A model generated the notes under the pieces. That model did no database searches. It was not told the origin of the DNA and worked only from the letters and a program-made list of their open reading frames with translations. This document shows, in pieces, positions 17,494 through 37,810 of a stretch of 64,000 nt of DNA. Both the position numbers and the translations under genes were made by a program. The stretch is taken from the NCBI RefSeq assembly GCF_013315695.1, contig NZ_CP054356.1; one strand, 5' to 3'. The stretch comes from Escherichia coli (GTDB lineage Bacteria; Pseudomonadota; Gammaproteobacteria; Enterobacterales; Enterobacteriaceae). Position 1 is the stretch's first letter, and each line of letters opens with the position of its first letter.

Positions 17494-17519
17494 GCTCCCT
17501 GAACGGTTAATTCAACGTA

Positions 17520-17729
17520 TCAGATATGTGAACCACTTCCGCCGCTGCCACCGTTTCCACCACTACAACCGTTGCTGCAACCACCACAACCGCCACCTTG
17601 ACCACCGCAGCTACCGCCGCCGCCGCCGCCGCCACCACCACCAATGCCAACACCTAATGGAGACTGGCGTGATAATTTAAGAGCATCAACGGACAAAACT
17701 ACACCAAATTCACTCGCTTTTAATTCCAT
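17520..17729 (-). CDS. mcbA: Microcin B17 precursor peptide McbA, 69 aa
   Basis: Translation MELKASEFGVVLSVDALKLSRQSPLGVGIGGGGGGGGGGSCGGQGGGCGGCSNGCSGGNGGSGGSGSHI is the recalled pro-MccB17 (leader plus Gly/Ser/Cys core). Confidence 0.95.
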   Translation of the reverse strand: MELKASEFGVVLSVDALKLSRQSPLGVGIGGGGGGGGGGSCGGQGGGCGGCSNGCSGGNGGSGGSGSHI

Positions 17730-19467: not shown

Positions 19468-20429
19468 TAATTACCTATGAGATACATACCGTTAACTAAA
19501 TCATATTGAGAGTTATTGGTTTTAAAAAAACGTTCATCACGAATCTGTGTGTGTTTTTTTACTGCATCGCATATTAATTCTGCGCCACCACCTATAACCA
19601 TAACATGAGTATAACCAGAAAATTCATTGAGTGTATTTAATACACGTTGCTCAAGTTTACGAAGTGCTTCATTCATTGCTTCGGTGACTATTGATATTTT
19701 ATTCTCATCATTAATTCGTTGCTTCAGATAGTTATTATCTTTTCTGTGAATAATTATATCGTCAGCAAGATAGCTACTTCCTTTTGTTCTCGCAAGAGAA
19801 AGGGCATCTTTTACTGCAGATGTGACCAGAGATACACCAAGAGATGAGTCTCCGTATATTTTACTGATTCCCGATAATTTCCCCATTACCTGAGAAATAT
19901 CTAATGTGGTGCCCCCGAGATCTATAATTAATAAAGAATCTAACTCATCCAGTTCTTGTAGAACTTCATAACCTGCCGGTATAGATTCAGGCATGACTTT
20001 TACATCTTTTATTGTGAATGTATCCCCACCATTTAATGTAATTTTTTTCCGGAAGTTTGCTTTCTTACGCTCAATATTTTCCGTATTGGGTTGGTTATTC
20101 CTGTCGTAATACTCTGTCAGAGGAAGTGTGCAAACAATATCCACTTCGCTTACCGGCAGACCACTGGTCAGTAAGGCGTGGTGCACCGCAACGACATTAA
20201 CGTCGCTGTATTGCCATGCGATATTGGTTGTGACTACAGCATCCGGGCTGATTGGATCAAATGAATACTGTTCGCCGTTCAGTGTGTAGTTAAAGACCTT
20301 TTTATCACCAAAAGAAACTGCCCACTCGCGTTTGAAGCTGTTCGGGCTAATGTGCTGTTTAATTGTTCCGTCGCTTTCCTGCCACTGTAGTTTGATGTTT
20401 GTTGAACCGTCATCAATGAATACCAACAT
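19467..20429 (-). CDS. parM: Actin-like partition ATPase ParM (StbA), 320 aa
   Basis: Translation [42 protein letters not shown]... matches the recalled R1 ParM; stop of parM abuts the parR start. Confidence 0.9.
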
Positions 20430-20600
20430 TTATAAAACTCCTTATGGTGTTTTTTTTGGTGTTTGTTTGGGTGTGTTTTGGGTTTTAAGTGGGTTTATTT
20501 GTCAAGTTTACCCCATTTTAACTATCAATCAATGATTATTTGTCTTGTTTTGGTGTTTTATTGGGTTTGGAGTGGGTTGTTTTTGGGTTTTGTTTGGCGG
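20430..20600. promoter_or_regulatory. parC: parC centromere/promoter region with tandem gggttt/ggtgttt-type iterons
   Basis: Immediately upstream of parM: repeated short units ttttggtgtttgtttgggtgtgttttgggtttt...ttggtgttttattgggtttggagtgggttgtttttgggttttgtttgg. Confidence 0.55.
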
Positions 20601-20610
20601 ATAACAAAAG

Positions 20611-20920
20611 ATGTCGCCGGGCTCCTCTTTTTACTGCGCCGGCTGACGCGGCGCGGCAGGAACGCTGCCTGTGGTCAGTGTCCCGCGTCCGGCCGGGCAC
20701 GGGACGGGCGCTTTTACCGCTCCCGGCTGGCGTCGGTGACAGTGTACGCCAGCCCGTCGCCCTTTTCTGATGAGCGCCCTTCAAGCCGCTTTCGCGGCAT
20801 AGCCTTGCCGTCAAAAAGACGACGGCTGCGGTATTCCACGGTCGGCCTGACCCGTTACCGGGCGCGGTGAACAGCCCACAGGCAGCGGGGAACGGGCGCC
20901 ACAGGGGCGCCCTCCCGATG
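20611..20920. repeat. Leading-region repeat family R1, copy a (about 310 bp, GC-rich, hairpin-rich)
   Basis: Near-identical to 21916-22230; each copy sits directly upstream of a plus-strand ORF; a short partial match occurs at 24473-24510. Confidence 0.5.
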
Positions 20921-20940
20921 CTCCTGTGAGGATAATTCCC

Positions 20941-21867
20941 ATGCCAAACTGGTGCTCGAATCGTATGTATTTTTCTGGTGAACCGGCACAGATCGCTGAG
21001 ATTAAACGACTGGCCAGCGGTGCAGTCACACCGTTTTATCGCCGCGCCACAAATGAAGGTATTCAGCTGTTTCTGGCCGGAAGTGCCGGACTTCTGCAGA
21101 CCACTGAAGATGTGCGGTTTGAACCATGCCCCGGACTGACGGCTGCCGGACGTGGTGTTTTATCGCCGGAGAATATCACGTTCACCCGCTGGCTGAAGCA
21201 CCTGCAGGACGGTGTACTGCTGGATGAGCAAAACTGCCTGATGCTGCATGAACTCTGGCTGCAGAGCGGTACTGGACAGCGTCGCTGGGAAGGGTTACCG
21301 GATGATGTCAGGGAAACTATCACTGTGCATTTCACCGCAAAAAGAGGTGACTGGTGTGACATCTGGGGTAACGAGGATGTATCGGTGTGGTGGAACCGTC
21401 TGTGTGACAACGTACTGCCGGAAAAAACCATGCCGTTTGACCTGCTGACGGTTTTGCCGACCCGCCTGGATATTGAAGTGAATGGCTTTAACGGCGGTGT
21501 TCTGAACGGTGTTCCTTCTGCATATCACTGGTATACAGAACGGTATGGCGTGAAGTGGCCTTGTGGGTATGACCTGAATATCAGCAGTCAGGGGGAAAAC
21601 TTCATTCAGGTAGATTTCGACACGCCGTGGTGTCAGCCGGAAAGCGACGTTGTTGCAGAATTAAGCCGCCGTTTCGGCTGCACGCTGGAGCACTGGTACG
21701 CCGAACAGGGCTGCAATTTCTGTGGCTGGCAGTTGTATGAGCGCGGAGAGCTTGTTGATGTGCTGTGGGGGGAACTGGAATGGTCTTCCCCGACAGATGA
21801 CGATGAGCTGCCGGAAGTCACCGGACCTGCGTGGATAGTCGACAATGTGGCGCATTATGGCGGATGA
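20941..21867 (+). CDS. Conserved leading-region protein of unknown function, about 308 aa (N-terminus MPNWCSNRMYFSGEP)
   Basis: ORF with a GAGG Shine-Dalgarno about 10 nt upstream of the ATG at 20941; family not confidently recognised. Confidence 0.55.
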   Translation: MPNWCSNRMYFSGEPAQIAEIKRLASGAVTPFYRRATNEGIQLFLAGSAGLLQTTEDVRFEPCPGLTAAGRGVLSPENITFTRWLKHLQDGVLLDEQNCLMLHELWLQSGTGQRRWEGLPDDVRETITVHFTAKRGDWCDIWGNEDVSVWWNRLCDNVLPEKTMPFDLLTVLPTRLDIEVNGFNGGVLNGVPSAYHWYTERYGVKWPCGYDLNISSQGENFIQVDFDTPWCQPESDVVAELSRRFGCTLEHWYAEQGCNFCGWQLYERGELVDVLWGELEWSSPTDDDELPEVTGPAWIVDNVAHYGG

Positions 21868-21915
21868 AGTATGACGGAGACGGGCGGGCAACCGCCCGTT
21901 TCTTTTCCGGTAAAG

Positions 21916-22230
21916 GATGTCGCCGTGCTCCTCTTTTTACTGCGCCGGCTGACGCGGCGCGGCATAAACGCTGCCTGTGGTCAGTGTCCCGCGTCCGGTG
22001 GGCACGGGACGGGCGCTTTTACCGCTCCCGGCTGGCGTCGGTGACAGTGTACGCCAGCCTGTCGCCCTTTTCTGATGAACGCCCTTCAAGCCGCTTTCGC
22101 GGCATAGCCTTGCCGTCAGAAAGACGACGGCTGCGGTATTCCACGGTCGGCCTGACCCGTTACCGGACGCGGTGAACAGCCCACAGGCAGCGGGGAACGG
22201 GCACCACAGGGGTGCCCTCCCGGTGCCCTC
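21916..22230. repeat. Leading-region repeat family R1, copy b
   Basis: See copy a; ends at the AAGGAG RBS of the methyltransferase gene. Confidence 0.5.
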
Positions 22231-22250
22231 TGTAAGAGAAGGAGTTTTGT

Positions 22251-22934
22251 ATGTCCCGTTTTGTCCTCGGTAACTGCATCGATGTTATGGCCCGTATTCC
22301 TGATAACGCCATTGATTTCATACTGACTGACCCGCCGTACCTCGTCGGTTTCCGTGACCGTTCCGGGCGCACCATTGCCGGTGATGTTAATGATGACTGG
22401 CTGCAACCTGCCAGCAATGAGATGTACCGCGTACTCAAAAAAGACGCGCTGATGGTCAGCTTCTACGGCTGGAACCGTGTCGATCGCTTTATGGCCGCCT
22501 GGAAACGCGCCGGATTCAGCGTGGCAGGGCACCTCGTGTTCACCAAAAACTACACATCCAAATCTGCGTATGTCGCGTACCGTCACGAATGCGCTTACAT
22601 CCTGGCAAAGGGCAGTCCGGCCCGGCCCCGTAACCCTCTGCCGGATGTGCTGGGCTGGAAATATTCAGGCAATCGTCATCACCCGACGGAAAAGCCCGTT
22701 ACCAGCCTGCAACCACTGATTGAGAGCTTCACACATCCGAACGCGATTGTGCTGGACCCGTTTGCAGGCAGCGGCTCAACCTGCGTCGCTGCCCTCCAGT
22801 CCGGACGCCGGTATATCGGTATCGAGCTGCTTGAACAGTATCACCGTGCCGGACAGCAACGACTGGCCGCCGTGCAACGGGCCATGCAGCAGGGGGCCGC
22901 GAATGATAACTGGTTTGAACCGGAGGCTGCGTAA
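22251..22934 (+). CDS. Orphan DNA N6-adenine methyltransferase (DPPY motif), 227 aa
   Basis: Motif ILTDPPYLVGF and a C-terminal DPFAGSGST SAM-binding motif (permuted order typical of beta-class N6/N4 MTases); no adjacent restriction endonuclease gene. Confidence 0.8.
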   Translation: MSRFVLGNCIDVMARIPDNAIDFILTDPPYLVGFRDRSGRTIAGDVNDDWLQPASNEMYRVLKKDALMVSFYGWNRVDRFMAAWKRAGFSVAGHLVFTKNYTSKSAYVAYRHECAYILAKGSPARPRNPLPDVLGWKYSGNRHHPTEKPVTSLQPLIESFTHPNAIVLDPFAGSGSTCVAALQSGRRYIGIELLEQYHRAGQQRLAAVQRAMQQGAANDNWFEPEAA

Positions 22935-23156
22935 ATGAACTATGCCGGACACGAAAAACTTCGCGCCGACGTGGCGGAGGTGGCCAACACCATGTGTGAC
23001 CTTCGGGCCAGGCTGAACGATATGGAGCATCGCTGTCGCTTTGATTCCGATGTGCTTGTTGAACGCCTGACACGCCAGACGCTGTATCGCGCCAATCGCC
23101 TGTTCATGGAGGCGTATACCGAAATTCTGGAACTGGATTCCTGCTTCAAAGATTGA
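22935..23156 (+). CDS. Small hypothetical protein, 73 aa
   Basis: ORF abutting the methyltransferase stop; no recognised motif. Confidence 0.35.
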   Translation: MNYAGHEKLRADVAEVANTMCDLRARLNDMEHRCRFDSDVLVERLTRQTLYRANRLFMEAYTEILELDSCFKD

Positions 23157-23169
23157 GAAGGAGACGAGA

Positions 23170-23604
23170 ATGTACGGAACATGCGAAACGCTATGCCGGG
23201 AGCTGGCAGCAAAGTATTCGGGAGACACGCCACTGATGCTGGTTATCTGGTCCCCGGAAGAAATTCAGGCCCTCTCTGACGGAATGGATATTGCCCTGAC
23301 CGATCATGAAATCAGGACTGTCCTGGCGCGCCTGGAGGACATCCCGGAAGACCAGCGGACTGAATCCGGTATTTCTTCCGGCGTGGCGATGGAGATCATC
23401 AATAACGTGAGCGAAAACCGCCAGGTGACTGTCCCTGCTGAACTGCTGGCGTCCCTGATTCAGACCGCTGAACAGGCATTGTGGAAACGTGAATGGGCCG
23501 CCCGGGATCATGGCCTCGCCGTCCCGGAATGCGTCACCCGCCGTCAGGCGGTGGTTAATCAGGTCCGCATCCTGCTGAAAAACAACACACACGAAAACGA
23601 CTGA
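23170..23604 (+). CDS. Hypothetical leading-region protein, 144 aa (paralogous to 25307-25726)
   Basis: Shares an MY.T start, an LTD.E..TV..RL.D block and a VTVPA.LL block with the ORF at 25307-25726. Confidence 0.5.
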   Translation: MYGTCETLCRELAAKYSGDTPLMLVIWSPEEIQALSDGMDIALTDHEIRTVLARLEDIPEDQRTESGISSGVAMEIINNVSENRQVTVPAELLASLIQTAEQALWKREWAARDHGLAVPECVTRRQAVVNQVRILLKNNTHEND

Positions 23605-23648
23605 TGTTATCGCCGCCTCCGGGCGGCGATACAGGGAGTTCATGAATT

Positions 23649-24419
23649 ATGAATGAAATGCTGAATGCACTGATTTATCGCCACGCCAGCAACCTGTTGC
23701 TGGCGCAGGGCTGGCCGGAAGAGACGGATGTTGACCAGCGTAACCCGAAGTATCCGGGCTGGATCAGCATTTACGTGCGGCTGGATGCGCCCCGGCTGGC
23801 GACGTTACTTATCAAGCGTCACGGCGGCGTACTGCCGCCGCTCCTGGCCTCTGCCATTCAGAAACTGACCGGAACCGGAGCGGAACTTGTTCTGTCCGGC
23901 AGTCAGTGGCAGTCGCTGCCGGTACTTCCGGCAGACGGAACGCAGGTGTCTTTCCCGTATGCCGGTGAGTGGCTGGCAGAGGACGAAATCAGGGCCGTTC
24001 TTGGTGCGGTACGCGATGCAGTATGCAGTGTCAGTTACCAGGTGGCAGAAGATGCGCGGCGTATCCGTGCGGCGCTGACCACCACCGGTCAGACGTTGCT
24101 GACCCGCCAGACGCGCCGCTTTCGCCTGGTGGTGAAGGAAAGCGATCACCCCTGCTGGCTCGATGAAGACGACGAAAACCTGCCCGTGGTGCTCGATGCC
24201 ATCCTGAACCGGGGCGCTCGTTTTTCGTCGGTGGAAATGTATCTGGTCAGTGAGTGTGTGGAGCATATCCTGTCCAGTGGGCTGGCCTGCGATATGCTGC
24301 GTATACCGGATGAACCGCCCCGCCGCTGGTTTGACCGTGGTGTTCTGCGGGAGGTGGTCCGGGAAGCCCGGAACGAAATCCGCAGCATGGCGGATGCCCT
24401 GGCAAAAATCCGGAAATGA
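23649..24419 (+). CDS. Hypothetical leading-region protein, 256 aa
   Basis: Uninterrupted ORF in the same orientation as neighbouring leading-region genes; no recognised motif. Confidence 0.5.
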
Positions 24420-24566
24420 TGACGCTGGCGGGGAAAAATCTCCGCCTTTTCCAGTCGGTCCCCGGAAAGAGCAAAAGGATGTCGCCGCAGGCTCCTCTTT
24501 ACCCGGCCATGTGGGGCATGGCCTTGTGGGTTTTCAGTTATGTGGCCTCAGCGTCGTGTGCGGGCT

Positions 24567-24792
24567 GTGCCGTGCCTCCATCGTAGCCGGGCTTCTGCGG
24601 GCGGGTTGCAAGGTAAGGTGAACCGCTGCGGTCACCCGGTCCCTCCTTCCCGTCTGCCGTGATTTTCCGGTCGTTCACCCGCTCAGATTTCGCGGTCTCA
24701 CCCTTCAACTCCCGTCAGCCGTGCGCGTCAGGCTGCGGCTTCCCTTGCGCCCTTGCAACCCTGCAGGCCCGGCAAAGATGGAGGCACGGCAC
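24567..24792. other. Long imperfect inverted repeat (about 45-bp arms at 24567-24612 and 24751-24792) upstream of klcA; candidate ssDNA hairpin (ssi/Frpo-like)
   Basis: Arm 1 gtgccgtgcctccatcgtagccgggcttctgcgggcgggttgcaagg and reverse complement of arm 2 gtgccgtgcctccatctttgccgggcctgcagggttgcaagg, read directly. Confidence 0.5.
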
Positions 24793-24834
24793 CGCCCGGT
24801 GTCGCGGAATATGTGAACAACGGAGGAAAACATC

Positions 24835-25260
24835 ATGCAATATGCGAAACCTGTCACTCTGAACGTTGAAGAGTGTGACCGTCTCTCCTTTCTGCCTTAC
24901 CTGTTTGGCAACGATTTTCTGTATGCCGAGGCGTATGTGTACGCGCTGGCGCAAAAAATGATGCCGGAATATCAGGGAGGCTTCTGGCATTTCATCCGCC
25001 TGCCGGACGGTGGCGGTTACATGATGCCGGATGGCGACCGTTTTCATCTGGTCAACGGTGAAAACTGGTTTGACCGCACTGTGAGTGCTGATGCCGCAGG
25101 TATCATCCTGACTTCCCTTGTGATTAACCGCCAGTTGTGGCTGTACCACGACAGCGGGGATGCGGGACTGACACACCTTTACCGGATGCGCGATGCGCAG
25201 TTGTGGAGCCACATCGAATTTCACCCCGAATGCAATGCGATTTACGCGGCACTTGACTGA
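24835..25260 (+). CDS. klcA: Antirestriction protein KlcA/ArdB family, 141 aa
   Basis: Translation [53 protein letters not shown]... matches recalled KlcA/ArdB proteins of F-like and IncP plasmids. Confidence 0.8.
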
Positions 25261-25306
25261 TTAACGGACGGGGCGGCGATGCCGCCCCTGTAAAGGAGAC
25301 GAGAAC

Positions 25307-25726
25307 ATGTACTGTACTGTTAAAGAAATTATCCGCGAAGTGCTGGATACAGACGTGCCGGACAGTGAATGCGTTTTTGCCGTGGTGCTGACCCGTGGGG
25401 ATGTGCGTCACATAGCCCAGGACTGGAGTCTGACAGACGATGAGCTGGAAACCGTCATGCAGCGGCTGGACGATGCCTTTGAGCATGGTGCTGATGTCAG
25501 CATTGTTCACGACGTTGTTCGTGAACTGATGGAGGAAAAGCGCGTAAACCGTCTTGTAACAGTCCCTGCGGTGCTGCTGGAAAAAGTGATGGTGATGGCT
25601 GGTAGTGAAATTTATCGCCTCCATGCTGTAGGGAGCGAGAACGGGGGCGACGGTGACGCATTTGTCAGGGAAGAACGTGAGATTATGCGGGTGATGCGTC
25701 AGGCGCTGGACGGGGAGAATGGGTAA
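25307..25726 (+). CDS. Hypothetical leading-region protein, 139 aa (paralogous to 23170-23604)
   Basis: See 23170-23604. Confidence 0.5.
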   Translation: MYCTVKEIIREVLDTDVPDSECVFAVVLTRGDVRHIAQDWSLTDDELETVMQRLDDAFEHGADVSIVHDVVRELMEEKRVNRLVTVPAVLLEKVMVMAGSEIYRLHAVGSENGGDGDAFVREEREIMRVMRQALDGENG

Positions 25727-25917
25727 TGAATATCAGCAAGGAAACCCGCGAAATTCTGCGTAATTACAGGGCCGTGATTAATGCGCGGCGTCGTGAAATG
25801 GGGCAGAAACCGCTCACCACCGCGCAGATTGTTGATGAAATATGTGATTTTGTGGTGAATCAGCAGGCTGTTTTCCTCGGTGGTCACTACATCCTTCAGG
25901 GCAGCAGGCACAGGTGA
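25726..25917 (+). CDS. Small hypothetical protein, 63 aa
   Basis: ORF start overlapping the upstream stop (ATGA); basic N-terminal half. Confidence 0.3.
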   Translation: MNISKETREILRNYRAVINARRREMGQKPLTTAQIVDEICDFVVNQQAVFLGGHYILQGSRHR

Positions 25918-26109
25918 TACAGGGCAGGCGGTGGAGGCCGCCTGTCAGCCCGCGCGAAAACCCCTGGCAGGCTGGCGCCTGCCGGAAGGGAAGCGGGCCA
26001 CGCTGGCGCGTCGCCCGTTACCCTTCCCGTTTGTGATGTGTCCGGAATGTTTTTTCCTGATGTTATGTTTCTGTGGTTACTGTTCTTCTTCTTCCTCTTC
26101 TTTCCGTTC

Positions 26110-26650
26110 CTCTCCTGTTTATGCCTTTTCCGGGCGTCCCCCTGGCGGGGCGGGCTGTCGTGAACGGAGCCAGCGGAGCTGTCTCCGCCCTGGCGGGCTT
26201 CCATCCCTGACGCAAAACCCCGGGTTTGCAGCGACCGGAACGGTCGCGCCACCCCTGTCGCGCCGTGGCCTGCGCTCCCGGCATCCCGGCAAAAAGACGC
26301 CGGGATGTAAGGAGCAACGCCGTTTCGCAAACCGCGCTTCACGTCGTTGCAGCGGGTCCCTGCTCATTGCCTGCCGGGTGCCACACACCCGTATGAGTCC
26401 CTGTCGCCGGGGGCATAGACAGCCACAACCTGCCGCACTGACTGTCCAGGGTAAATGAACAGCCCACAAAATTTTTTACCTAAAACCCGGTAAAAAATTT
26501 TGCGTTCTGCCCAGGACAGGTGCGTCAGGCCGTGGCAGTGATGCCCCTTGCGGCGAAGGTTCTCAAACGGGTGAAGTTCATACCACAGGGAATACAGCAG
26601 CAGGTTCCCGCGAAACGTCAAAACCGCGGCTCCCGAAACTCAACGGGTGA
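26110..26650. repeat. Leading-region repeat family R2 (Frpo/ssi-like ssDNA promoter candidate), copy 1
   Basis: About 540 bp alignable to 29390-29935 and 34800-35370; shared core ggtaaatgaacagcccacaaaattttttacc.aaaacccggtaaaaaattttgcgttctgc...gtcaaaaccgcggctcccgaaactcaac; preceded by a TTC/CTC-rich simple tract. Confidence 0.5.
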
Positions 26651-26884
26651 TGTTCTTTAAAAATCAGGATTTATTTCAGGCTCCGGCAATACGCATTTAT
26701 GTGTTCTGTCAGTCATCCGGCTGGCAGGTAATGAAAACGCAGGAACAGAAGGAGGAAAACACCGGAAAGCGTCAGATGCAGATATGAAAAAAAGCAGGTC
26801 AGGGACCTGCTTAATCCACGCCGTAAGAATTGTGCGACCAATTTTGACGGCATTGTTAACCAATTTGTCATAAGGAATCCATTT

Positions 26885-27115
26885 ATGACTGTAAGCATTG
26901 TTTCACCTTCCGCAGCGGCTGTAAAGCCCCGCCGTCATCCCCGTTTCAGACGCGAAGACATCCCCGCGCCGGAACTTGACCCCGTGCTGAAAGCCTTCGG
27001 GCGACACATTGCCCGGAGTTTTCGCCGGGGGCGTGGTGTACACATCCCCGCCATGAAAAACACGGCCTTCGGGCAGGTGCTCCGCACACTCGAACTGAAA
27101 CGCGCTTTTAACTGA
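26885..27115 (+). CDS. Small basic hypothetical protein, 76 aa
   Basis: Arg-rich ORF downstream of R2 copy 1. Confidence 0.3.
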   Translation: MTVSIVSPSAAAVKPRRHPRFRREDIPAPELDPVLKAFGRHIARSFRRGRGVHIPAMKNTAFGQVLRTLELKRAFN

Positions 27116-27166
27116 TGAGGTGAGCCGCCCCGCGAGGGGCGGCAACAGACGGAAGGAGAACATTTT

Positions 27167-28528
27167 ATGACATTAGCAGCAATCACCATGACCGCCCCGG
27201 AAGCCGCCAGCCCTGTGCAGATGTACCGCGCGACCTACTCACCGGATGACAACAAACTGCGCCTGTATGCCGTGTCACGTCTTGACCCGGAGACGTATAA
27301 AAAAGTGCATGATGCCGGTTTTCGCTGGGCACCAGAACAGGCGCTGTTTGTGGCTCCAGCCTGGACACCGGGCCGGGAAGACGTGCTCCTCTCACTTGCC
27401 GGAGAGATTGAGGATGAAGACAGCACGCTCGCTGAACGTCAGGAAGCACGGGCGGAGCGGTTTACCGGATACAGCGGAAAGCGGGCCAGTGAATCCGCAC
27501 AGGCACTTGATGAAGTGGAAAGACTGGCCGCGATGATCCCGCCCGGTCAGCCCATTCTTGTGGGGCATCACAGCGAACGCCGCGCCCGTCGTGATGCGCA
27601 GCGTATTGAAAACGGCATGAAACGTGCCGTGATGCTCTTTGAACGTGCGGAATACTGGGAAGAACGTGCGCGGTCGGCACTGCTTCACGCGAAGTATAAA
27701 GAACGTCCGGACGTTCGCTGGCGTCGTATCAAAAAAATCGAAGCTGATTTGCGCAAGGCTGAAAAGACCATCGCACAGTCGCAGAAATATCTGACGATGT
27801 GGCGGGCTGAATCGCTGGATCTGAATATGGCAAAACTCATCAGCAGTCATGACCATATCAGCGCCTGTTTCCCGCTGGATACGTATCCGCGCCCGGCAGA
27901 AAAAAGCCAGTATGAAGGAAGTCGATCGTTATGGTCGGCCCTGGATGATGACATCATCACCACGGAGCAGGCCCGCGAAATTGCGATCCGCTGTCATGAA
28001 CGGCAGATTCAGCATCAGCAACGCTGGGTTAACCACTATCAGAACCGCCTGATCTATGAGCGTGCCATGCTGGACGAAAGCGGCGGCGTGGTTACCCGGA
28101 CACAGGATTTTGAGCCGGGCGGACAGGTTTTCAGCCGGGGCGAGTGGCTGACCATCATCCGCGTGAACAAAAGCAACGGGGCGGTGAGTTCAGTCACAAC
28201 GCCGAATTACAGTTTTCTCGGGTACAGCGGCACGATGAAAGTGACGCCCGATCGCATCACGGACTACAAAGCACCATCGGCAGAAGAGGCTGCCGTCGCC
28301 AGCCAGGCCGCGAAGCGTCCGCCGGTAGTCAACTATCCGGGGGAAGGTTTCCGGGAAATGACAAAGGCGCAGTGGGCCGCCCTGCCCCGGGACTGTAAGG
28401 CCGTGCGCAGTGTGGCAGAGACAGAAGACCACGGGGCATACCGCTACCGCCGCACAATGGACAATAATTTCCGCCTGGTGAATGTGTATATCACCGACAT
28501 GAAAATCACGGAAATCCCGCAGAAATAA
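27167..28528 (+). CDS. Conserved leading-region protein of unknown function, 453 aa
   Basis: Long uninterrupted ORF with a GGAGAA RBS; no catalytic motif recognised. Confidence 0.6.
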   Translation: MTLAAITMTAPEAASPVQMYRATYSPDDNKLRLYAVSRLDPETYKKVHDAGFRWAPEQALFVAPAWTPGREDVLLSLAGEIEDEDSTLAERQEARAERFTGYSGKRASESAQALDEVERLAAMIPPGQPILVGHHSERRARRDAQRIENGMKRAVMLFERAEYWEERARSALLHAKYKERPDVRWRRIKKIEADLRKAEKTIAQSQKYLTMWRAESLDLNMAKLISSHDHISACFPLDTYPRPAEKSQYEGSRSLWSALDDDIITTEQAREIAIRCHERQIQHQQRWVNHYQNRLIYERAMLDESGGVVTRTQDFEPGGQVFSRGEWLTIIRVNKSNGAVSSVTTPNYSFLGYSGTMKVTPDRITDYKAPSAEEAAVASQAAKRPPVVNYPGEGFREMTKAQWAALPRDCKAVRSVAETEDHGAYRYRRTMDNNFRLVNVYITDMKITEIPQK

Positions 28529-28574
28529 GGTATATCCCCCCGGGAAATCCCCGGGGGATGACGGAGATAATGAT

Positions 28575-29138
28575 ATGCACAGTCAGTTAAAAGAACGTAT
28601 CCGGCTGATGCGCGCAAGGCTGGATAACGCCGCGCCGGTTGCTGAAATCCGGGCTGAATCTCAGCTTTTTGTGACTCCTGCCCCGGTCTGTGATCGCCTG
28701 GTGACGCTGGCGGAGATCAGCAACCGTGATCACATTCTGGAACCCTCTGCCGGCACCGGGGCCATACTGCGGGCGATTCGTCATGTCGCGCCGGGGGCCA
28801 TGTGTGATGCGGTGGAGATTAACAGCGGGCTGGTCCGGTATCTGCGGGATAATTTTAACGGTGTCAGGGTTCAGTGTGGCGACTTCATGGAATGGCAGCC
28901 GGTGCAGTATTACAGCCGGATTATCATGAATCCGCCGTTCAGTCACGGGCAGGATATCCGGCATATCCTGCGGGCTTTTTCCCTGTTGCGTCCGGGTGGT
29001 GTGCTGGTTGCCGTCTGTCTGAACGGGCCGCGCCAGCAGGAGAAGCTGTTACCGTTTTCTGATGTCCGCGAGGTGCTGCCGTGCGGCACATTTGCTTATA
29101 CCCGTGTTCCGACGATGATTATTCGTCTGCGTGCCTGA
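28575..29138 (+). CDS. SAM-dependent methyltransferase (NPPF motif), 187 aa; second orphan MTase
   Basis: GTG-containing SAM-binding region LEPSAGTGAIL and motif IV IIMNPPFS, typical of N6-adenine/N-methyltransferases. Confidence 0.7.
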   Translation: MHSQLKERIRLMRARLDNAAPVAEIRAESQLFVTPAPVCDRLVTLAEISNRDHILEPSAGTGAILRAIRHVAPGAMCDAVEINSGLVRYLRDNFNGVRVQCGDFMEWQPVQYYSRIIMNPPFSHGQDIRHILRAFSLLRPGGVLVAVCLNGPRQQEKLLPFSDVREVLPCGTFAYTRVPTMIIRLRA

Positions 29139-29389
29139 TGACTCCGGGCAGGCGGGAGGATAAATGCCCGTCTGCCCGCGCCGGGAAAAGACCGCGCGCC
29201 GGTGGCGCTGAAAGGGGCCGCGCTTACGCGCCGCCCCTTTCATTACGCGGACGTTCTGCTGTGGGCTTCTGTCTTTTCAGACCTGTCATTTGCCTGTTAC
29301 TGATGATGTTGTTGTTCCTGCTACTGCTACTGCTACTGCTACTGCTACTGTTCTTCTTTTTTCTGCTGCTCTGATTACTGTCTGTTTTG

Positions 29390-29935
29390 TTGTTCTCCTG
29401 CTTATGCCTTTTCCGGGCGTCCCCCTGGCGGGGCGGGCTGTCGTGAACGGAGCCAGCGGAGCTGTCTCCGCCCTGGCGGGCTTCCATCCCTGACGCAAAA
29501 ACCCGGGTTTGCAGCGACCGGAACGGTCGCGCCACCCTTGTCGCGCCGTGGCCTGCGCTCCCGGCATCCCGGCAAAAGACGCCGGGATGTAAGGAGCAAC
29601 GCTGTTTCGCAAACCGCGCTTCACGTCGTTGCGGCGGGTCCCTGCCCGTTGTTCTGTCCGGTGCCATTCACCTGTTTAAGCCCCTGTCGCCGGGGGCTGA
29701 TACAGCCACAACCTGCCGCACTGACTGTCCAGGGTAAATGAACAGCCCACAAAATTTTTTACCCAAAACCCGGTAAAAAATTTTGCGTTCTGCCCAGGAC
29801 AGGTGCGTCAGGCCGTGGCAGTGATGCCCCATGCGGCGAAGGTTCTCAAACAGGTGATGGTGAATACCGGAGGGAACAAAAGGCAGGTCCCCGCAAAACG
29901 TCAAAACCGCGGCTCCCGAAACTCAACAGATGATG
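29390..29935. repeat. Leading-region repeat family R2 (Frpo/ssi-like), copy 2, directly upstream of ssb; preceded by a (CTGCTA)5 microsatellite at 29318-29350
   Basis: See copy 1; microsatellite read directly. Confidence 0.5.
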
Positions 29936-29968
29936 GGGGCTGAAAACATCAACAGAAGGAGACACATC

Positions 29969-30496
29969 ATGGCAGTTCGTGGCATTAACAAGGTCATTCT
30001 TGTCGGTCGTCTGGGAAAAGATCCGGAAGTCCGTTACATCCCCAACGGGGGCGCAGTGGCAAACCTGCAGGTGGCCACGTCAGAAACCTGGCGCGACAAA
30101 CAGACGGGGGAAATGAAGGAGCAGACGGAATGGCACCGCGTGGTGCTGTTCGGCAAGCTCGCGGAAGTGGCAGGTGAATATCTGCGTAAGGGGGCGCAGG
30201 TCTACATTGAAGGCCAGCTTCGCACCCGTAGCTGGGAAGATAACGGTATTACCCGTTACGTCACCGAAATCCTTGTTAAAACCACGGGCACCATGCAGAT
30301 GCTGGGGAGTGCACCACAGCAGAACGCTCAGGTGCAACCGCAGCCTCAGCAGAATGGTCAGTCACAGAGTGCTGACGCGACGAAAAAAGGGAGCGCGAAA
30401 ACGAAAGGCCGTGGACGTAAGGCTGCGCAGCCGGAGCCTCAGCCGCAACCACCGGAGGGGGAGGATTACGGGTTTTCAGACGATATCCCGTTCTGA
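29969..30496 (+). CDS. ssb: Plasmid single-stranded DNA-binding protein SSB, 175 aa
   Basis: Translation [48 protein letters not shown]... with the C-terminal acidic tail DDIPF. Confidence 0.92.
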
Positions 30497-30514
30497 CTGG
30501 CCTGACTGTGATAA

Positions 30515-30787
<273 letters not shown>

Positions 30788-30847
30788 GAGAGGTGCCGGA
30801 CGGGGATCACGTCCGGCAGACATTAACTACACAATAAGGGGATAGTC

Positions 30848-32812
30848 ATGTCAGTAACAAAGTCTGAACCAAAATCTACCCGTAAAGCAAGCCGTAAACC
30901 TGCAAAAACGCAGGAAACTGTCCTGTCTGCCCTGCTGGCGCAGACGGAGGAAGTGAGCGTGCCGCTGGCCTCGCTGATTAAGTCACCACTGAATGTGCGC
31001 ACGGTGCCGTATTCTGCGGAGTCCGTCAGCGAACTGGCTGATTCCATTAAGGGGGTCGGCCTGCTGCAGAATCTGGTTGTTCATGCCCTGCCAGGTGACC
31101 GCCACGGTGTCGCCGCAGGTGGTCGCCGACTGGCAGCACTCAACATGCTGGCAGAGCGTGGCATCATTCCGGCTGACTGGCCTGTCCGCGTGAAAATTAT
31201 TCCGCAGGAACTGGCGACGGCCGCATCGATGACCGAGAACGGTCATCGTCGGGATATGCACCCAGCCGAACAGATTGCCGGATTCTGTGCAATGGCGCAG
31301 GAAGGCAAAACACCTGCACAAATCGGTGATTTGCTGGGCTATTCACCCCGCCACGTTCAGCGAATGCTGAAACTGGCTGACCTTGCGCCTGTCATCCTCG
31401 ATGCGCTGGCAGAAGACCTCATCACCACCGAGCACTGTCAGGCGCTGGCGCTGGAGAACGACACCGCGCGTCAGGTGCAGGTGTTTGAAGCCGCCTGTCA
31501 GTCGGGATGGGGCGGTAAACCGGAAGTACAGACCATTCGTCGTCTGGTGACCGAAAGTGAAGTGGCGGTGGCAGGGAACAGTAAATTCCGCTTCGTGGGG
31601 GCTGATGCCTTCTCGCCAGATGAACTGCGCACTGACCTGTTCAGCGACGACGAGGGTGGCTATGTGGACTGCGTGGCGCTCGATGCCGCCCTGCTGGAAA
31701 AACTCCAGGCTGTTGCTGAACACCTTCGGGAAGCCGAAGGCTGGGGATGGTGCGCCGGACGCATGGAGCCTGTCGGTGAGTGCCGTGAGGATGCCGGAAC
31801 ATACCGCTGTCTGCCGGAGCCGGAAGCGGTGCTGACGGAGGCGGAAGAAGAACGTCTGAACGAACTGATGACGCGTTACGACGCGCTGGAAAACCAGTGT
31901 GAGGAATCTGACCTGCTGGAAGCAGAAATGAAGCTGATGCGCTGCATGGCGAAGGTCAGGGCGTGGACGCCGGAGATGCGTGCCGGAAGCGGTGTGGTGG
32001 TGTCCTGGCGTTATGGCAACGTGTGTGTCCAGCGTGGTGTGCAGTTGCGCAGCGAGGATGATGCGGCTGACGACGCTGACCGCACGGAACAGGTGCAGGA
32101 GAAAGCGCCCGTGGAGGAAATCAGTCTGCCACTGCTGACGAAAATGTCTTCCGAACGCACGCTGGCAGTCCAGGCAGCACTGATGCAGCAACCGGACAAA
32201 TCCCTGGCACTGCTGGCATGGACGCTCTGCCTGAATGTGTTTGGCAGCGGAGCGTACAGTAAACCAGCACAAATCAGCCTGGAATGTAAACATTATTCGC
32301 TGACCAGCGATGCGCCATCGGGGAAGGACGGTGCCGCATTCCTGGCGCTGATGGCAGAAAAAGCCCGTCTTGCAGCCCTGTTACCGGAGGGATGGTCACG
32401 GGATATGACGACGTTCCTGTCACTCAGCCAGGAGGTACTGTTATCCCTGCTCAGTTTCTGCACCGCGTGCAGCATCCACGGCGTTCAGACCCGCGAGCAT
32501 GGTCACACGTCACGCAGTCCGCTGGACTCGCTGGAGAGCGCTATCGGATTCCACATGCGCGACTGGTGGCAGCCGACGAAAGCAAACTTCTTCGGACACC
32601 TGCAAAAGCCGCAGATTATCGATGCCCTGAATGATGCCGGACTGTCCGGTGCTGCGCGGGACGCGGAGAAAATGAAGAAAGGCGATGCCGCTGAACATGC
32701 AGAGTTCCACATGAAAGACAACCGCTGGGTGCCTGGCTGGATGTGTACACCACGTCCACAGGCAGAGACGGAAACCACGGAGTACCGTGACGACCAGGCA
32801 GAAGCCGCCTGA
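30848..32812 (+). CDS. ParB-like nuclease-domain protein of the leading region, 654 aa
   Basis: N-terminal ParB/Srx-like region (...[30 protein letters not shown]...) and large acidic C-terminal extension; position between ssb and psiB as in F-like plasmids. Confidence 0.7.
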
Positions 32813-32880
32813 CCGCCAGTCATAAACCATTTATCACGCCGCCCTGCCGGAGACGGGGCGGCAGCAAGGGAGATACCGTG

Positions 32881-34031: not shown

Positions 34032-34194
34032 TGCGGCAACAATCGCACAGATTACCCGTAAACAGCCTGAATGAGCGGGTTATTTTCAGGAAAAGTGAGT
34101 GTGGTCAGCGTGCAGGTATATGGGCTATGATGTGCCCGGCGCTTGAGGCTTTCTGCCTCATGACGTGAAGGTGGTTTGTTACCGTGTTGTGTGG

Positions 34195-37439: not shown

Positions 37440-37810
37440 CGTAAATAATTTAACCTACTCCACAAAAAGGCTCAACAGGTTGGTGGTTCTCACCACCAAA
37501 AGCACCACACCCCACGCAAAAACAATTTTTTGCTGATTTTTCTTTATAAATAGAGTGTTATGAAAAATTAGTTTCTCTTACTCTCTTTATGATATTTAAA
37601 AAAGCGGTGTCGGCGCGGCTACAACAACGCGCCGACACCGCTTTGTAGGGGTGGTACTGACTATTTTTATAAAAAACATCATTTTATATTAGGGGCGCTG
37701 CTAGCGGCGCGGTGTGTTTTTTTATAGGATACCGCTAGGGGCGCTGCTAGCGGTGCGTCCCTGTTTGTATTATGAATTTTAGTGTTCCGAAATTAACTTT
37801 ATTTTATGTT
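37440..37810. other. oriT: oriT (origin of transfer): F-type nic sequence on the minus strand (GGGGTGT^GGTGCT, nick between 37507 and 37506), with TraM-binding repeats near traM
   Basis: Reverse complement of 37490-37520 reads gcgtggggtgtggtgcttttggtggtgag, the recalled F/R100 nic region; ctagcggcgcg/cgctaggggcgctgctagcgg repeats upstream of traM resemble sbm sites. Transfer would proceed from 37506 toward lower coordinates, so the leading region enters first. Confidence 0.8.

What the first reader, a model, noticed from the sequence alone, without database searches (positions are those of the whole stretch)
20941..28528. Leading region is packed with uncharacterised ORFs interleaved with known anti-defence genes
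Between parC and ssb there are two orphan methyltransferases (DPPY and NPPF types, neither with a restriction partner) and klcA/ardB, alongside at least seven ORFs I cannot assign: 20941-21867, 22935-23156, 23170-23604, 23649-24419, 25307-25726, 25726-25917, 26885-27115 and 27167-28528. All face the same way and several are translationally coupled. Leading regions are known to concentrate anti-restriction, anti-SOS and other anti-defence functions that act right after entry, so these unknowns are reasonable candidates for anti-defence proteins such as anti-CRISPR or anti-abortive-infection factors. This is inference from context, not from any motif I can see.
Basis: inference. Interest (0 to 1): 0.6.

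Follow-up and report, generated by a model that had tools for sequence, protein, structure and literature searches.

The report
Ordinary IncF plasmid leading region
This is the well-known first-entering ("leading") segment of an F-like conjugative plasmid, found almost unchanged in thousands of plasmids; its unnamed genes are real and already published as uncharacterised, and one of them looks like the detached front half of the methyltransferase next to it.

Summary
All eight ORFs exist at the stated coordinates. They face one way and have Shine-Dalgarno sites. dN/dS is 0.05-0.5, against 0.7-1.3 for control ORFs.

The region is not new. It is the oriT-distal half of the IncF/IncI leading region and occurs in at least 5000 plasmid records. 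It is syntenic with F and pESBL. The unknown ORFs with a DUF or legacy name (DUF1281, DUF1380, YchA, DUF3560) appear in Samuel et al. 2024 (Nature) as large uncharacterised families enriched in leading regions; that paper also makes the "probably anti-defence" argument.

Five roughly 300-nt hairpins on the transferred (minus) strand head the operons. They are homologues of the published single-stranded-DNA promoters (classes 3, 3, 2, 1, 1).

The DPPY enzyme is 96.5% identical to M.EcoGIX, the ssDNA m6A methyltransferase.

My one addition: 97 of 134 diverged homologues of the DUF3560 ORF carry the neighbouring NPPF methyltransferase as a C-terminal domain. The two genes are therefore probably a split methyltransferase.

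DUF1281 matches a solved structure of unknown function. HMM searches on the other six unknowns, and fold searches on YchA and DUF3560, found nothing informative. F carries close orthologues of six of the eight and remains fully sensitive to Cas9.

The parts
20606..20921 (-). Class-3 single-stranded-DNA promoter hairpin, copy A, upstream of the DUF1281 gene.
   Evidence: It is a 97% direct repeat of 21912-22226. The minus strand folds as DNA with z = -5.2. It is 95% identical to the hairpin 5' of M.EcoGIX in pESBL. F and pESBL have no copy in front of their DUF1281 gene.
20941..21867 (+). DUF1281 / Api92-like (YubB, YccB) protein of 308 aa; very acidic (pI 4.5, net charge -23); function unknown.
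   Evidence: It matches PDB 2IJR 'hypothetical protein Api92' at 6e-48 and phrog_37043. dN/dS is 0.27. The gene is frameshifted in F.
21912..22226 (-). Class-3 single-stranded-DNA promoter hairpin, copy B, heading the methyltransferase operon.
   Evidence: It is 99% identical to pESBL L004 4426-4781, where Wen et al. 2025 mapped the transcription start by 5' RACE. The DNA fold has z = -6.2.
22251..22934 (+). Beta-class DPPY N6-adenine DNA methyltransferase; orthologue of M.EcoGIX, which makes m6A at SAY on single strands.
   Evidence: It is 96.5% identical in amino acids to the only DNA methylase annotated on pESBL. It matches NCBIfam PRK13699 at 2e-147. Its function is described in PMC7736820.
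22935..23156 (+). YubE-family protein of 73 aa; abuts the methyltransferase stop codon; function unknown.
   Evidence: There is a 0-nt gap and a GGAG site upstream. The orthologue in L005 carries Pfam PF27407 YubE. dN/dS is 0.14-0.28.
23170..23604 (+). DUF1380 protein a, 144 aa; acidic (pI 4.7); function unknown.
   Evidence: RefSeq names it DUF1380 and it matches phrog_9024. It is a paralogue of 25307-25726 (28% identity, E 1e-9). dN/dS is 0.2-0.5.
23649..24419 (+). YchA-family protein of 256 aa; function unknown.
24475..24805 (-). Class-2 single-stranded-DNA promoter hairpin heading the klcA operon.
   Evidence: It is 88% and 87% identical to the hairpins 5' of klcA and ardA in pESBL. It is 78% identical to Frpo' 4 of Samuel et al.. 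The DNA fold has z = -4.6.
24835..25260 (+). KlcA/ArdB anti-restriction protein, 141 aa.
   Evidence: It matches PDB 2KMG KlcA at 2e-18 and 2WJ9 at 2e-8. dN/dS is 0.05-0.07.
25307..25726 (+). DUF1380 protein b, 139 aa; acidic (pI 4.5, net charge -15); function unknown.
   Evidence: dN/dS is 0.18-0.32.
25726..25917 (+). Basic protein of 63 aa (pI 10); its start overlaps the preceding stop codon (ATGA); function unknown.
   Evidence: dN/dS is 0.10-0.26.
26308..26641 (-). Class-1 Frpo/ssiD-type single-stranded-DNA promoter hairpin heading the 76-aa / DUF3560 / methyltransferase operon.
   Evidence: It is 80% identical to F ssiD (D90178). The DNA fold has z = -10.4. It belongs to a roughly 590-nt direct repeat with 29349-29935.
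26789..26890 (-). AS-pc01 antisense RNA overlapping the ribosome-binding site and start codon of the 76-aa ORF.
   Evidence: Rfam RF02875 scores 79.4 bits against a gathering threshold of 79. It has its own sigma-70-like promoter at 26925-26897 and terminator at 26812-26792 on the minus strand.
26885..27115 (+). Very basic protein of 76 aa (pI 12); weak HU-fold match; candidate DNA-binding protein.
   Evidence: Pfam HU-CCDC81_euk_1 matches with i-Evalue 2.6e-4. A Klebsiella homologue is annotated 'CCDC81 family HU domain 1'. dN/dS is 0.22-0.33.
27167..28528 (+). DUF3560 protein of 453 aa; proposed non-catalytic half of a split methyltransferase.
   Evidence: Pfam PF12083 covers residues 89-206. 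The AlphaFold2 model has pLDDT 94.3. In 97 of 134 diverged homologues the protein carries a C-terminal domain about 41% identical to the next ORF. dN/dS is 0.13.
28575..29138 (+). Class I SAM-dependent methyltransferase of 187 aa (EPSAGTG ... NPPF); catalytic domain only, with no recognition domain.
   Evidence: Its best solved relative is the M.TaqI catalytic domain, residues 22-122 (2e-6). It matches PADLOC mad2 and Type II methyltransferase models. NCBIfam gives only sub-threshold Erm, KsgA and PrmC matches. dN/dS is 0.21.
29590..29939 (-). Class-1 Frpo hairpin (equivalent to Frpo2 of F) heading the operon that starts with ssb, followed by DUF905, herB and psiB; it marks the right-hand boundary of the finding.
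   Evidence: It is 87% identical to F ssiD. The DNA fold has z = -9.8.
37499..37515 (-). oriT nic site, GTGGGGTGT|GGTGCTTT.
   Evidence: It is an exact match to the F nic sequence on the minus strand. FinP and the traJ 5' UTR lie at 38294-38405.

Best explanation
The interval is the oriT-distal half of a classical F-like (IncF/IncI-type) leading region.

The minus strand is nicked at 37499-37515 and enters the recipient 5' first, so this interval arrives as single-stranded DNA about 9-16.5 kb behind the nick.

The interval holds four co-oriented operons, each preceded by a roughly 300-nt imperfect hairpin on the transferred strand:
1. DUF1281.
2. The M.EcoGIX-type methyltransferase, YubE, DUF1380a and YchA.
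3. KlcA, DUF1380b and the 63-aa protein.
4. The 76-aa HU-like protein, DUF3560 and the NPPF methyltransferase.

By homology with F and pESBL, host RNA polymerase reads these hairpins as promoters only while the DNA is single-stranded. The genes are therefore expressed in a short burst in the new host and fall silent once the complementary strand is made.

The known products protect the entering DNA from restriction. The M.EcoGIX-type enzyme does so by promiscuous m6A methylation of the single strand, and KlcA does so against type I enzymes.

DUF3560 and the 187-aa NPPF enzyme are the two halves of a methyltransferase that is a single polypeptide in most relatives. DUF3560 most likely supplies the DNA-binding or targeting part that the catalytic fragment lacks.

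The remaining seven ORFs are real, conserved early genes with unknown biochemistry.

Shown here: the gene content, the orientation relative to nic, the hairpins and their homology, purifying selection, and the fusion pattern.

Inferred from orthologues: early expression, and the methylation specificity of the DPPY enzyme.

Inference only: the role of DUF3560 as a methyltransferase subunit, and any function for the other seven ORFs.
For: Identity of the region:
- Megablast finds at least 5000 plasmid records, and 2164 of them cover at least 80% of the interval.
- Each of two sub-modules is also present in at least 5000 records.
- Gene-by-gene synteny with F and the IncI1 plasmid pESBL holds at 77-98% amino-acid identity.
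- The exact F nic sequence lies on the minus strand.

Promoters:
- The direct and inverted repeats are mapped.
- The elements are homologous to F ssiD/Frpo and to Samuel's Frpo' 4.
- They are homologous to the pESBL hairpins whose transcription starts were mapped by 5' RACE.
- DNA folds of the minus strand give z = -4.6 to -10.4, and no shuffle folded as well.
- No sigma-70-like double-strand promoter occurs on the + strand in 10.2 kb.

Early expression of orthologues:
- The M.EcoGIX and klcA operons of pESBL and F are induced in transconjugants (PMC12672017).

Coding status:
- dN/dS is 0.05-0.52 for the listed ORFs, against 0.7-1.3 for control ORFs.
- Every start has a Shine-Dalgarno site.

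Split methyltransferase:
- 97 of 134 cluster representatives no more than 76% identical to the query have the methyltransferase domain C-terminal to the DUF3560 part. Their median length is 675 aa, and the order is the same in all 97.
- Pfam finds an MTS domain in 92 of 135 alignment members.
- A 47%-identical homologue in a phage-like contig is split in the same way, with a 4-nt overlap to a 35%-identical methyltransferase.
- A 679-aa fused form sits beside ssb, DUF932, kleA and radC in a MOBF plasmid of Alicycliphilus.
- The 187-aa enzyme aligns only to the catalytic domain of M.TaqI.
Against: - No transcription or methylation data exist for this particular plasmid.
- I did not locate the -35 and -10 elements within the hairpins myself.
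- The promoter status of copy A of the class-3 hairpin (in front of DUF1281) rests only on its 97% identity to copy B. F and pESBL have no copy at that position.
- The substrate of the NPPF enzyme is not established. NCBIfam gives only weak rRNA-adenine and PrmC-like matches.
- The confident DUF3560 model has no recognisable DNA-binding or recognition-domain fold.
- Gene fusion shows functional linkage, not mechanism.
- Chimeric ORFs produced by deletions are common in this region. Fusions among close relatives therefore prove little, and the argument rests on the distant ones.
Confidence: 0.8

Rival explanations
1. One reading: the unassigned ORFs are dedicated inhibitors of recipient defence systems, such as anti-CRISPR, anti-abortive-infection or new anti-restriction proteins. 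Each would act as a stand-alone protein immediately after entry.
For: - The ORFs lie in a leading region on the strand that can be transcribed from entering DNA.
- They belong to families statistically enriched in leading regions (PMC11541004).
- They share operons with a protective methyltransferase and with KlcA.
- DUF1281, DUF1380a and DUF1380b are strongly acidic (pI 4.5-4.7, net charge -10 to -23). KlcA and PsiB in this window are acidic too, and from general knowledge so are DNA-mimic inhibitors.
- The YchA model has no counterpart in the PDB, which from general knowledge is typical of anti-defence proteins.
Against: - PHROGs, PADLOC, NCBIfam and the Pfam and solved-structure searches I ran gave no hit to any known inhibitor.
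- Samuel et al. report no Foldseek match to anti-CRISPR or anti-restriction structures for these families.
- F carries six of the eight ORFs and is still blocked about 550-fold by Cas9. The F derivative pOX38-Tc is blocked about 10^4-fold by type I-E CRISPR.
- DUF1281 is a pseudogene in F, which remains a proficient conjugative plasmid.
- DUF3560 is better explained as a methyltransferase subunit.
Confidence: 0.3
2. The unknown ORFs serve plasmid establishment rather than defence evasion. They could handle the entering single strand, assist complementary-strand synthesis, or transiently reprogram the host, as SSB, PsiB and HerB do.
For: - The adjacent ParB-like leading protein YfjB/HerB reprograms host transcription and offsets the cost of plasmid acquisition (PMC13370423).
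- The 76-aa protein (pI 12, weak HU-like match) and the 63-aa protein (pI 10) look like nucleic-acid binders.
- The hairpin promoters themselves modulate strand conversion.
Against: - No sequence or fold similarity ties any of these ORFs to replication, repair or transcription factors.
- Rifampicin does not abolish complementary-strand synthesis in F, so no newly made plasmid protein is required for it.
Confidence: 0.3
3. YubE, DUF1380a and YchA are accessory subunits of the M.EcoGIX-type methyltransferase. They might link it to DNA polymerase I or to single-stranded DNA. This would parallel the proposed DUF3560/NPPF pair.
For: - The four genes form one tight operon with gaps of 0, 13 and 44 nt.
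- Their order is conserved in F, pESBL and a Salmonella plasmid.
- Fomenkov et al. found that M.EcoGIX loses activity on purification and suspected an intermediary protein.
- In-frame DUF1380a-YchA fusions of 375 aa occur in several 90%-identity clusters.
Against: - M.EcoGIX cloned alone methylates DNA in vivo (PMC7736820).
- The DUF1380a-YchA fusions are between close relatives, in a region where deletion chimeras such as YchA-SSB and YchA-KlcA are common.
- A second DUF1380 paralogue sits in the klcA operon, which has no methyltransferase.
Confidence: 0.12

Closest known systems
Leading regions of plasmid F (IncFI) and pESBL / ColIb-P9 (IncI1)
   Same: - The gene order is the same: DUF1281, DPPY methyltransferase, YubE, DUF1380, YchA, KlcA, DUF1380, 63-aa ORF, ssb, DUF905, ParB-like HerB, psiB. 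Amino-acid identity is 77-98%.
- The hairpin promoter classes occupy the same positions.
   Different: - This plasmid has an extra module (76-aa ORF, DUF3560, NPPF methyltransferase) between two Frpo copies. F and pESBL lack the module.
- It also has a second class-3 hairpin in front of DUF1281.
- DUF1281 is intact here but frameshifted in F.
'Anti-defence islands' of plasmid leading regions (Samuel et al., Nature 2024, PMC11541004)
   Same: - The definition fits: genes next to oriT, all templated by the transferred strand, Frpo-like promoters, and orphan methyltransferases, SSB, SOS inhibitors and anti-restriction genes mixed with uncharacterised families.
- The unknown ORFs here with a DUF or legacy name (DUF1380, YchA, DUF1281, DUF3560) are their families 7, 10, 27 and 28; family 11 is probably YubE.
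   Different: There is nothing categorically different. That paper offers no function for these families beyond annotation hints. The DUF3560-methyltransferase fusion pattern is quantified here, and their table records only a 'Methyltransferase domain protein' structural hit.
M.EcoGIX / M.BceJIII single-strand-specific m6A methyltransferases (Fomenkov et al. 2020, PMC7736820)
   Same: - The ORF at 22251-22934 is 96.5% identical to the pESBL enzyme.
- It has the DPPY motif and beta-class layout.
- It sits behind a 99% identical hairpin.
   Different: The second methyltransferase (NPPF, 187 aa) is unrelated to this family. It is gamma-class-like, is only a catalytic domain, and is paired with DUF3560.
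M.TaqI-type (gamma-class) N6-adenine DNA methyltransferases
   Same: The order of motif I (EPSAGTG) and motif IV (NPPF) matches, and the sequence resembles the M.TaqI catalytic domain.
   Different: The C-terminal DNA-recognition domain is absent. In relatives the extra sequence is an N-terminal DUF3560 region of about 450 aa with a long helical bundle and beta-rich domains. That region has no fold match in the PDB.
YfjB/HerB, the ParB-like leading-region protein (PMC13370423)
   Same: It is a formerly uncharacterised leading-region gene that is zygotically induced. It lies in the same window at 30848-32812.
   Different: HerB has recognisable ParB/CTPase and HTH domains. Apart from the weak HU-like match for the 76-aa ORF, none of the unknown ORFs here has a recognisable domain of known function.

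Membership tests
Conjugative-plasmid leading region / anti-defence island | It lies next to oriT on the side that enters the recipient first. | tested here: met
   The exact F nic sequence is at 37499-37515 on the minus strand. The traJ 5' UTR and FinP lie at 38294-38405, to its right. The interval is 9-16.5 kb on the 5'-leading side.
Conjugative-plasmid leading region / anti-defence island | The genes are oriented so that the transferred strand is their template. | tested here: met
   All genes from 20941 to 33315 are on the + strand, and the transferred strand is the minus strand.
Conjugative-plasmid leading region / anti-defence island | It contains known anti-defence or establishment genes (anti-restriction, orphan methyltransferase, SSB, SOS inhibitor). 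| tested here: met
   KlcA, the M.EcoGIX orthologue, and SSB and PsiB.
Conjugative-plasmid leading region / anti-defence island | The genes are expressed transiently from single-stranded DNA in the recipient. | not testable with these tools
   This has been shown for the orthologous operons of pESBL and F (PMC12672017 and PMC9849209). Here it is inferred from 87-99% identity of the upstream elements.
Frpo/ssi single-stranded-DNA promoters (class 1) | Sequence homology to F ssiD/Frpo, and a long imperfect stem-loop on the transferred strand upstream of an operon. | tested here: met
   The two copies are 80% and 87% identical to D90178 over about 340 nt. The DNA folds have z = -10.4 and -9.8. 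I did not map the -35 and -10 positions.
Class-2 and class-3 single-stranded-DNA promoters (Wen et al. 2025) | Homology to the pESBL hairpins 5' of klcA/ardA (class 2) and 5' of M.EcoGIX (class 3). | tested here: met
   Class 2 is 88% and 87% identical. Class-3 copy B is 99% identical and copy A 95%. The folds have z = -4.6 to -6.2.
M.EcoGIX-type ssDNA methyltransferase | A beta-class enzyme with a DPPY catalytic motif and close sequence identity to M.EcoGIX. | tested here: met
   The DPPY motif is visible in the translation. Identity to the only DNA methylase on pESBL is 96.5%.
M.EcoGIX-type ssDNA methyltransferase | [quoted passage not shown] | not testable with these tools
   This needs a methylome and mating assays. 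It is known for the pESBL enzyme (PMC7736820).
Anti-CRISPR proteins | Sequence or structural similarity to a known Acr family. | tested here: not met
Anti-CRISPR proteins | Inhibits CRISPR interference against the element that carries it. | not testable with these tools
   Indirect evidence argues against it for six ORFs. F, which encodes close orthologues, is blocked 550-fold by Cas9, and its derivative pOX38-Tc is blocked 10^4-fold by type I-E. Other CRISPR types are untested.
Gamma-class N6-adenine DNA methyltransferase (M.TaqI-like), for the NPPF ORF | Motif I (FxGxG-like) comes before motif IV (NPPF/Y). | tested here: met
   EPSAGTG is followed by MNPPF. The ORF aligns to M.TaqI residues 22-122.
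Gamma-class N6-adenine DNA methyltransferase (M.TaqI-like), for the NPPF ORF | It has its own target-recognition domain. | tested here: not met
   The ORF is only 187 aa, and nothing aligns beyond the catalytic domain. In 72% of diverged relatives the enzyme is fused behind a DUF3560 region.
KlcA/ArdB anti-restriction | Sequence membership of the KlcA/ArdB fold family. | tested here: met
   It matches 2KMG at 2e-18 and 2WJ9 at 2e-8. It also matches the PHROG 'anti-restriction protein' family at 1.7e-20.

The most novel reading that the evidence does not exclude
The 76-aa HU-like protein, DUF3560 and the 187-aa NPPF enzyme together form a second entry-phase methyltransferase, mechanistically distinct from M.EcoGIX. 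Its DNA-recognition part is a fold absent from the PDB.

The enzyme family is widespread as a single roughly 675-aa protein in leading regions of unrelated conjugative plasmids and among phage early genes. In enterobacterial plasmids it has been split into two genes.

Its expression would be doubly gated. A hairpin promoter active only on single-stranded DNA turns it on, and the antisense RNA AS-pc01, made only from double-stranded DNA, turns it off.

Separately, the acidic DUF1281 and DUF1380 proteins could be DNA-mimic inhibitors of defence nucleases not yet tested.
Probability: 0.35. Interest if true: 0.5.

Novelty: already known. Interest (0 to 1): 0.25.

Why it matters
These genes sit on thousands of clinical IncF and IncI resistance plasmids and are among the first to be expressed in a new host. 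Knowing their functions would help explain, and perhaps help block, plasmid establishment.

That question remains open, but it is already posed explicitly in the literature (Samuel 2024; Wen 2025; Couturier 2023). This window adds no new instance or anomaly.

The practical gain here is narrower:
- One 'unknown' can be tested as a methyltransferase subunit rather than as an independent inhibitor.
- Two RefSeq 'hypothetical proteins' in the region are hairpin DNA, not genes.

Tried and rejected
- **HMM libraries.** NCBIfam, PHROGs and PADLOC scans of every ORF gave only family names of unknown function.
- **Pfam.** The 256-aa and 63-aa ORFs gave nothing significant.
- **PDB sequence searches.** Only DUF1281 matched, to 2IJR, a structural-genomics protein of unknown function. 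A DUF1380 profile hit only a de novo designed protein.
- **DUF1380a-YchA fusions.** I considered the 375-aa fusions as Rosetta-stone evidence and down-weighted them. The same searches show other deletion chimeras (YchA-SSB in 82 contigs, YchA-KlcA, methyltransferase-YchA, DUF1281-YchA).
- **Promoter elements.** I tried to place -35 and -10 elements in the hairpins by eye and could not do so reliably. Promoter status therefore rests on homology to mapped elements.
- **CRISPR spacers.** I tested published Klebsiella spacers against the window. There are only partial matches to the Frpo copies and a 31/32 match in hok/sok. The DUF3560 and methyltransferase spacers target the Klebsiella-type allele, not this one.
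- **Contexts of fused homologues.** Most metagenomic contigs carrying fused DUF3560-methyltransferase homologues were too short to show context.

Full report
**What is there**

The window comes from an F-like conjugative plasmid. The microcin B17 operon and parM/parR lie to the left of the finding. To the right lie ssb, a DUF905 gene, the ParB-like gene now called herB, psiB, sok, and the traJ leader with FinP.

The exact F nic sequence GTGGGGTGT|GGTGCTTT occurs once, at 37499-37515 on the minus strand. The minus strand is therefore the transferred strand. It enters the recipient 5' first in descending window coordinates, and it is the template for every + strand gene between 20.9 and 36.6 kb. 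The finding covers the part of the leading region furthest from oriT, 9-16.5 kb behind the nick.

**Check of the observation**

All eight ORFs exist at the coordinates given. RefSeq annotates the same genes in a 99.9% identical plasmid. The flanking assignments are correct:
- The DPPY enzyme matches NCBIfam PRK13699 at 2e-147.
- KlcA matches PDB 2KMG at 2e-18.
- The NPPF enzyme is a class I SAM-dependent methyltransferase whose closest solved relative is the catalytic domain of M.TaqI.

Each ORF start has a GGAG-type ribosome-binding site. Two junctions are tight (0 nt and a 1-nt overlap), one gap is 13 nt, and the rest are 44-51 nt.

I compared each ORF with its orthologue in F, in the IncI1 plasmid pESBL and in a Salmonella plasmid (L005). 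dN/dS is 0.05-0.52 for every listed ORF, including the three of 63-76 codons. Two ORFs that RefSeq calls 'hypothetical protein' (20577-20870 and 21864-22175) lie inside hairpin DNA and give 0.7-1.3. The listed ORFs are real genes, and those two annotated ORFs are not.

**How common it is**

Megablast of 20400-30600 reaches the 5000-record ceiling of the plasmid collection, and 2164 records cover at least 80% of the query. Most are Escherichia, Klebsiella, Salmonella and Shigella plasmids typed as conjugative. The methyltransferase-YubE-DUF1380-YchA block and the 76-aa-DUF3560-methyltransferase block each also reach 5000 records.

Gene order and sequence match plasmid F and pESBL at 77-98% amino-acid identity.

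Between the gene groups lie long repeats that fold, as minus-strand DNA, into stem-loops of about 300 nt. No shuffled control folded as well.

| Element | Coordinates | Fold z-score | Closest published element |
|---|---|---|---|
| Class 3, copy A | 20606-20921 | -5.2 | 95% identical to the pESBL hairpin 5' of M.EcoGIX |
| Class 3, copy B | 21912-22226 | -6.2 | 99% identical to the same pESBL hairpin |
| Class 2 | 24475-24805 | -4.6 | 88% and 87% identical to the pESBL hairpins 5' of klcA and ardA |
| Class 1 | 26308-26641 | -10.4 | 80% identical to F ssiD/Frpo |
| Class 1 | 29590-29939 | -9.8 | 87% identical to F ssiD/Frpo |

Wen et al. 2025 mapped a transcription start by 5' RACE in the pESBL hairpin 5' of M.EcoGIX and named it class 3. 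The hairpins 5' of klcA and ardA are their class 2. A third class-1 copy lies at 35008-35353, outside the finding.

No sigma-70-like double-strand promoter occurs on the + strand anywhere in 20400-30600.

The interval therefore holds four operons, each behind a single-stranded-DNA promoter. [quoted passage not shown] In both plasmids the M.EcoGIX and klcA operons are induced in transconjugants.

**Known functions**

The DPPY enzyme is 96.5% identical to the only DNA methylase on pESBL, which is M.EcoGIX. M.EcoGIX makes m6A at SAY on single strands. It protects pESBL from restriction in a way that depends on oriT orientation (PMC7736820).

KlcA/ArdB acts against type I restriction in vivo. Recent deletion tests of klcA on plasmid pB10 and of ardB on RIP113 found no effect.

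**New inference: DUF3560 and the NPPF enzyme are one split methyltransferase**

A full-database HMMER search with the 453-aa DUF3560 protein found 3879 cluster representatives. Most of the best-scoring diverged ones are 630-700 aa long rather than 450.

Among the 134 representatives no more than 76% identical to the query, 97 carry a domain with a median 41.5% identity to the window's 187-aa NPPF enzyme. In every case it lies C-terminal to the DUF3560 part. The median fused length is 675 aa. Pfam independently finds an MTS methyltransferase domain in 92 of the 135 alignment members.

Two contexts support the link:
- A 47%-identical unfused homologue in a phage-like metagenome contig is followed, with a 4-nt overlap, by a 198-aa methyltransferase 35% identical to the window enzyme (E 2e-30). 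A Lar restriction-alleviation gene lies nearby.
- A 679-aa fused version sits with ssb, DUF932, kleA and radC in a MOBF/MPF-F plasmid of the betaproteobacterium Alicycliphilus.

The 187-aa enzyme aligns only to residues 22-122 of M.TaqI and has no recognition domain. In the window both halves are under purifying selection (dN/dS 0.13 and 0.21), with a 46-nt spacer and a GGAG site between them.

The substrate is also unproven. DNA methyltransferase models score best (PADLOC mad2 at 3.5e-20, Type II methyltransferases, M.TaqI), but weak rRNA-adenine and PrmC matches exist too.

**The other seven unknowns**

- **DUF1281** matches the structural-genomics protein Api92 (2IJR, 6e-48), whose function is unknown. 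It is frameshifted in F.
- **YubE, the two DUF1380 paralogues, YchA and the 63-aa ORF** have no informative match in any library.
- **The 76-aa ORF** is very basic (pI 12) and has a weak Pfam match to an HU-type domain (i-Evalue 2.6e-4). It may bind nucleic acid.
- **DUF1281 and both DUF1380 proteins** are strongly acidic, as are KlcA and PsiB in this window. This is compatible with DNA-mimic inhibitors but proves nothing.

**Evidence bearing on the anti-defence reading**

The general claim is already published, and for these very families. Samuel et al. 2024 list DUF1380, YchA, DUF1281 and DUF3560 among the 30 largest leading-region-enriched families. They call them uncharacterised and report no structural match to anti-CRISPR or anti-restriction proteins.

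Two published experiments weigh against the specific anti-CRISPR idea. F encodes six of the eight ORFs at 87-96% identity, with DUF1281 present only as a frameshifted copy. F is nevertheless inhibited about 550-fold by Cas9 unless acrIIA4 is added. The F derivative pOX38-Tc is inhibited about 10^4-fold by E. coli type I-E CRISPR.

The neighbouring gene yfjB/herB shows that a conserved, zygotically induced leading-region protein can act on host physiology rather than on a defence system.

I put the chance that at least one of the seven is a direct defence inhibitor at about 0.3. An establishment function unrelated to defence gets a similar chance.

**Modularity**

The 76-aa-DUF3560-methyltransferase module is bracketed by two copies of the roughly 590-nt class-1 element and is absent from F and pESBL. 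In those plasmids a single element joins the 63-aa ORF to ssb. DUF1281 is bracketed by the two class-3 copies, whereas F and pESBL have only the downstream copy.

Databases also contain many deletion chimeras from this region, such as YchA-SSB in 82 contigs. The repeated promoters thus behave as recombination substrates that add or remove promoter-plus-gene cassettes. Couturier et al. already raised this possibility for Frpo1 and Frpo2.

**Verdict**

The additions from this analysis are incremental:
- Strong comparative evidence for a split DUF3560/NPPF methyltransferase.
- The promoter map for this plasmid.
- Recognition that two annotated ORFs are hairpin DNA.

Novelty: already known. Interest: 0.25.

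Noticed in passing
window 26789-26925, minus strand: The antisense RNA AS-pc01 (Rfam RF02875) has its own sigma-70-like promoter (26925-26897) and terminator (26812-26792). It overlaps the ribosome-binding site and start codon of the 76-aa ORF at the head of the DUF3560/methyltransferase operon. This is the only double-strand promoter-like site in 10.2 kb. It may silence the operon once the plasmid is double-stranded.
   Followed up: partly
window 20577-20870 and 21864-22175, + strand: ORFs that RefSeq annotates as 'hypothetical protein' (WP_002430945, WP_001310011) lie inside the class-3 hairpins. Their dN/dS is 0.7-1.3, so they are almost certainly not genes.
   Followed up: yes
window 20439-20601: An array of 11-12-bp T/G-rich iterons lies directly upstream of parM. 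It is the parC centromere and marks the left boundary of the leading region.
   Followed up: no
window 29318-29350 and 26083-26102: Short tandem repeats, (CTGCTA)x5.5 and (TTC)x6.7, lie in the 5' extension shared by the two class-1 elements. Their significance is unknown.
   Followed up: no
window 26342-26365, 29624-29645, 35042-35063; and 34171-34201: A Klebsiella pneumoniae chromosomal CRISPR spacer, reported to hit an intergenic region in 524 plasmids (PMC6965323), matches 22-24 of 32 nt in all three Frpo copies. The published hok/sok spacer matches 31 of 32 nt at 34171-34201. Host CRISPR arrays therefore target these leading-region elements.
   Followed up: partly
window 35008-35353 and 36723-36911: A third class-1 Frpo copy (84% identical to F ssiD) and an ssiE homologue (91%) lie closer to oriT, outside the finding.
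   Followed up: no
window 16606-17729, minus strand: The microcin B17 genes (McbA precursor at 17520-17729, McbB at 16606-17493) sit next to the partition locus. This segment has much lower GC (35-42%) than the leading region (55-60%).
   Followed up: no
L002 (plasmid F) 4856-5778: The DUF1281 gene of plasmid F is split by a frameshift at about codon 162. It is intact in this window and in pESBL.
   Followed up: partly
L005 6399-6945 and L004 16075-16341: The 76-aa basic ORF has two tandem copies ahead of DUF3560 in a Salmonella plasmid. It also has a 42%-identical paralogue in the part of the pESBL leading region downstream of ardA.
   Followed up: no
proteins P0235, P0127, P0229, P0133 (public databases): Chimeric ORFs join YchA to SSB (417 aa, 82 contigs), YchA to KlcA, the methyltransferase to YchA, and DUF1281 to YchA. 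They indicate recurrent deletions within this region in natural plasmids.
   Followed up: partly
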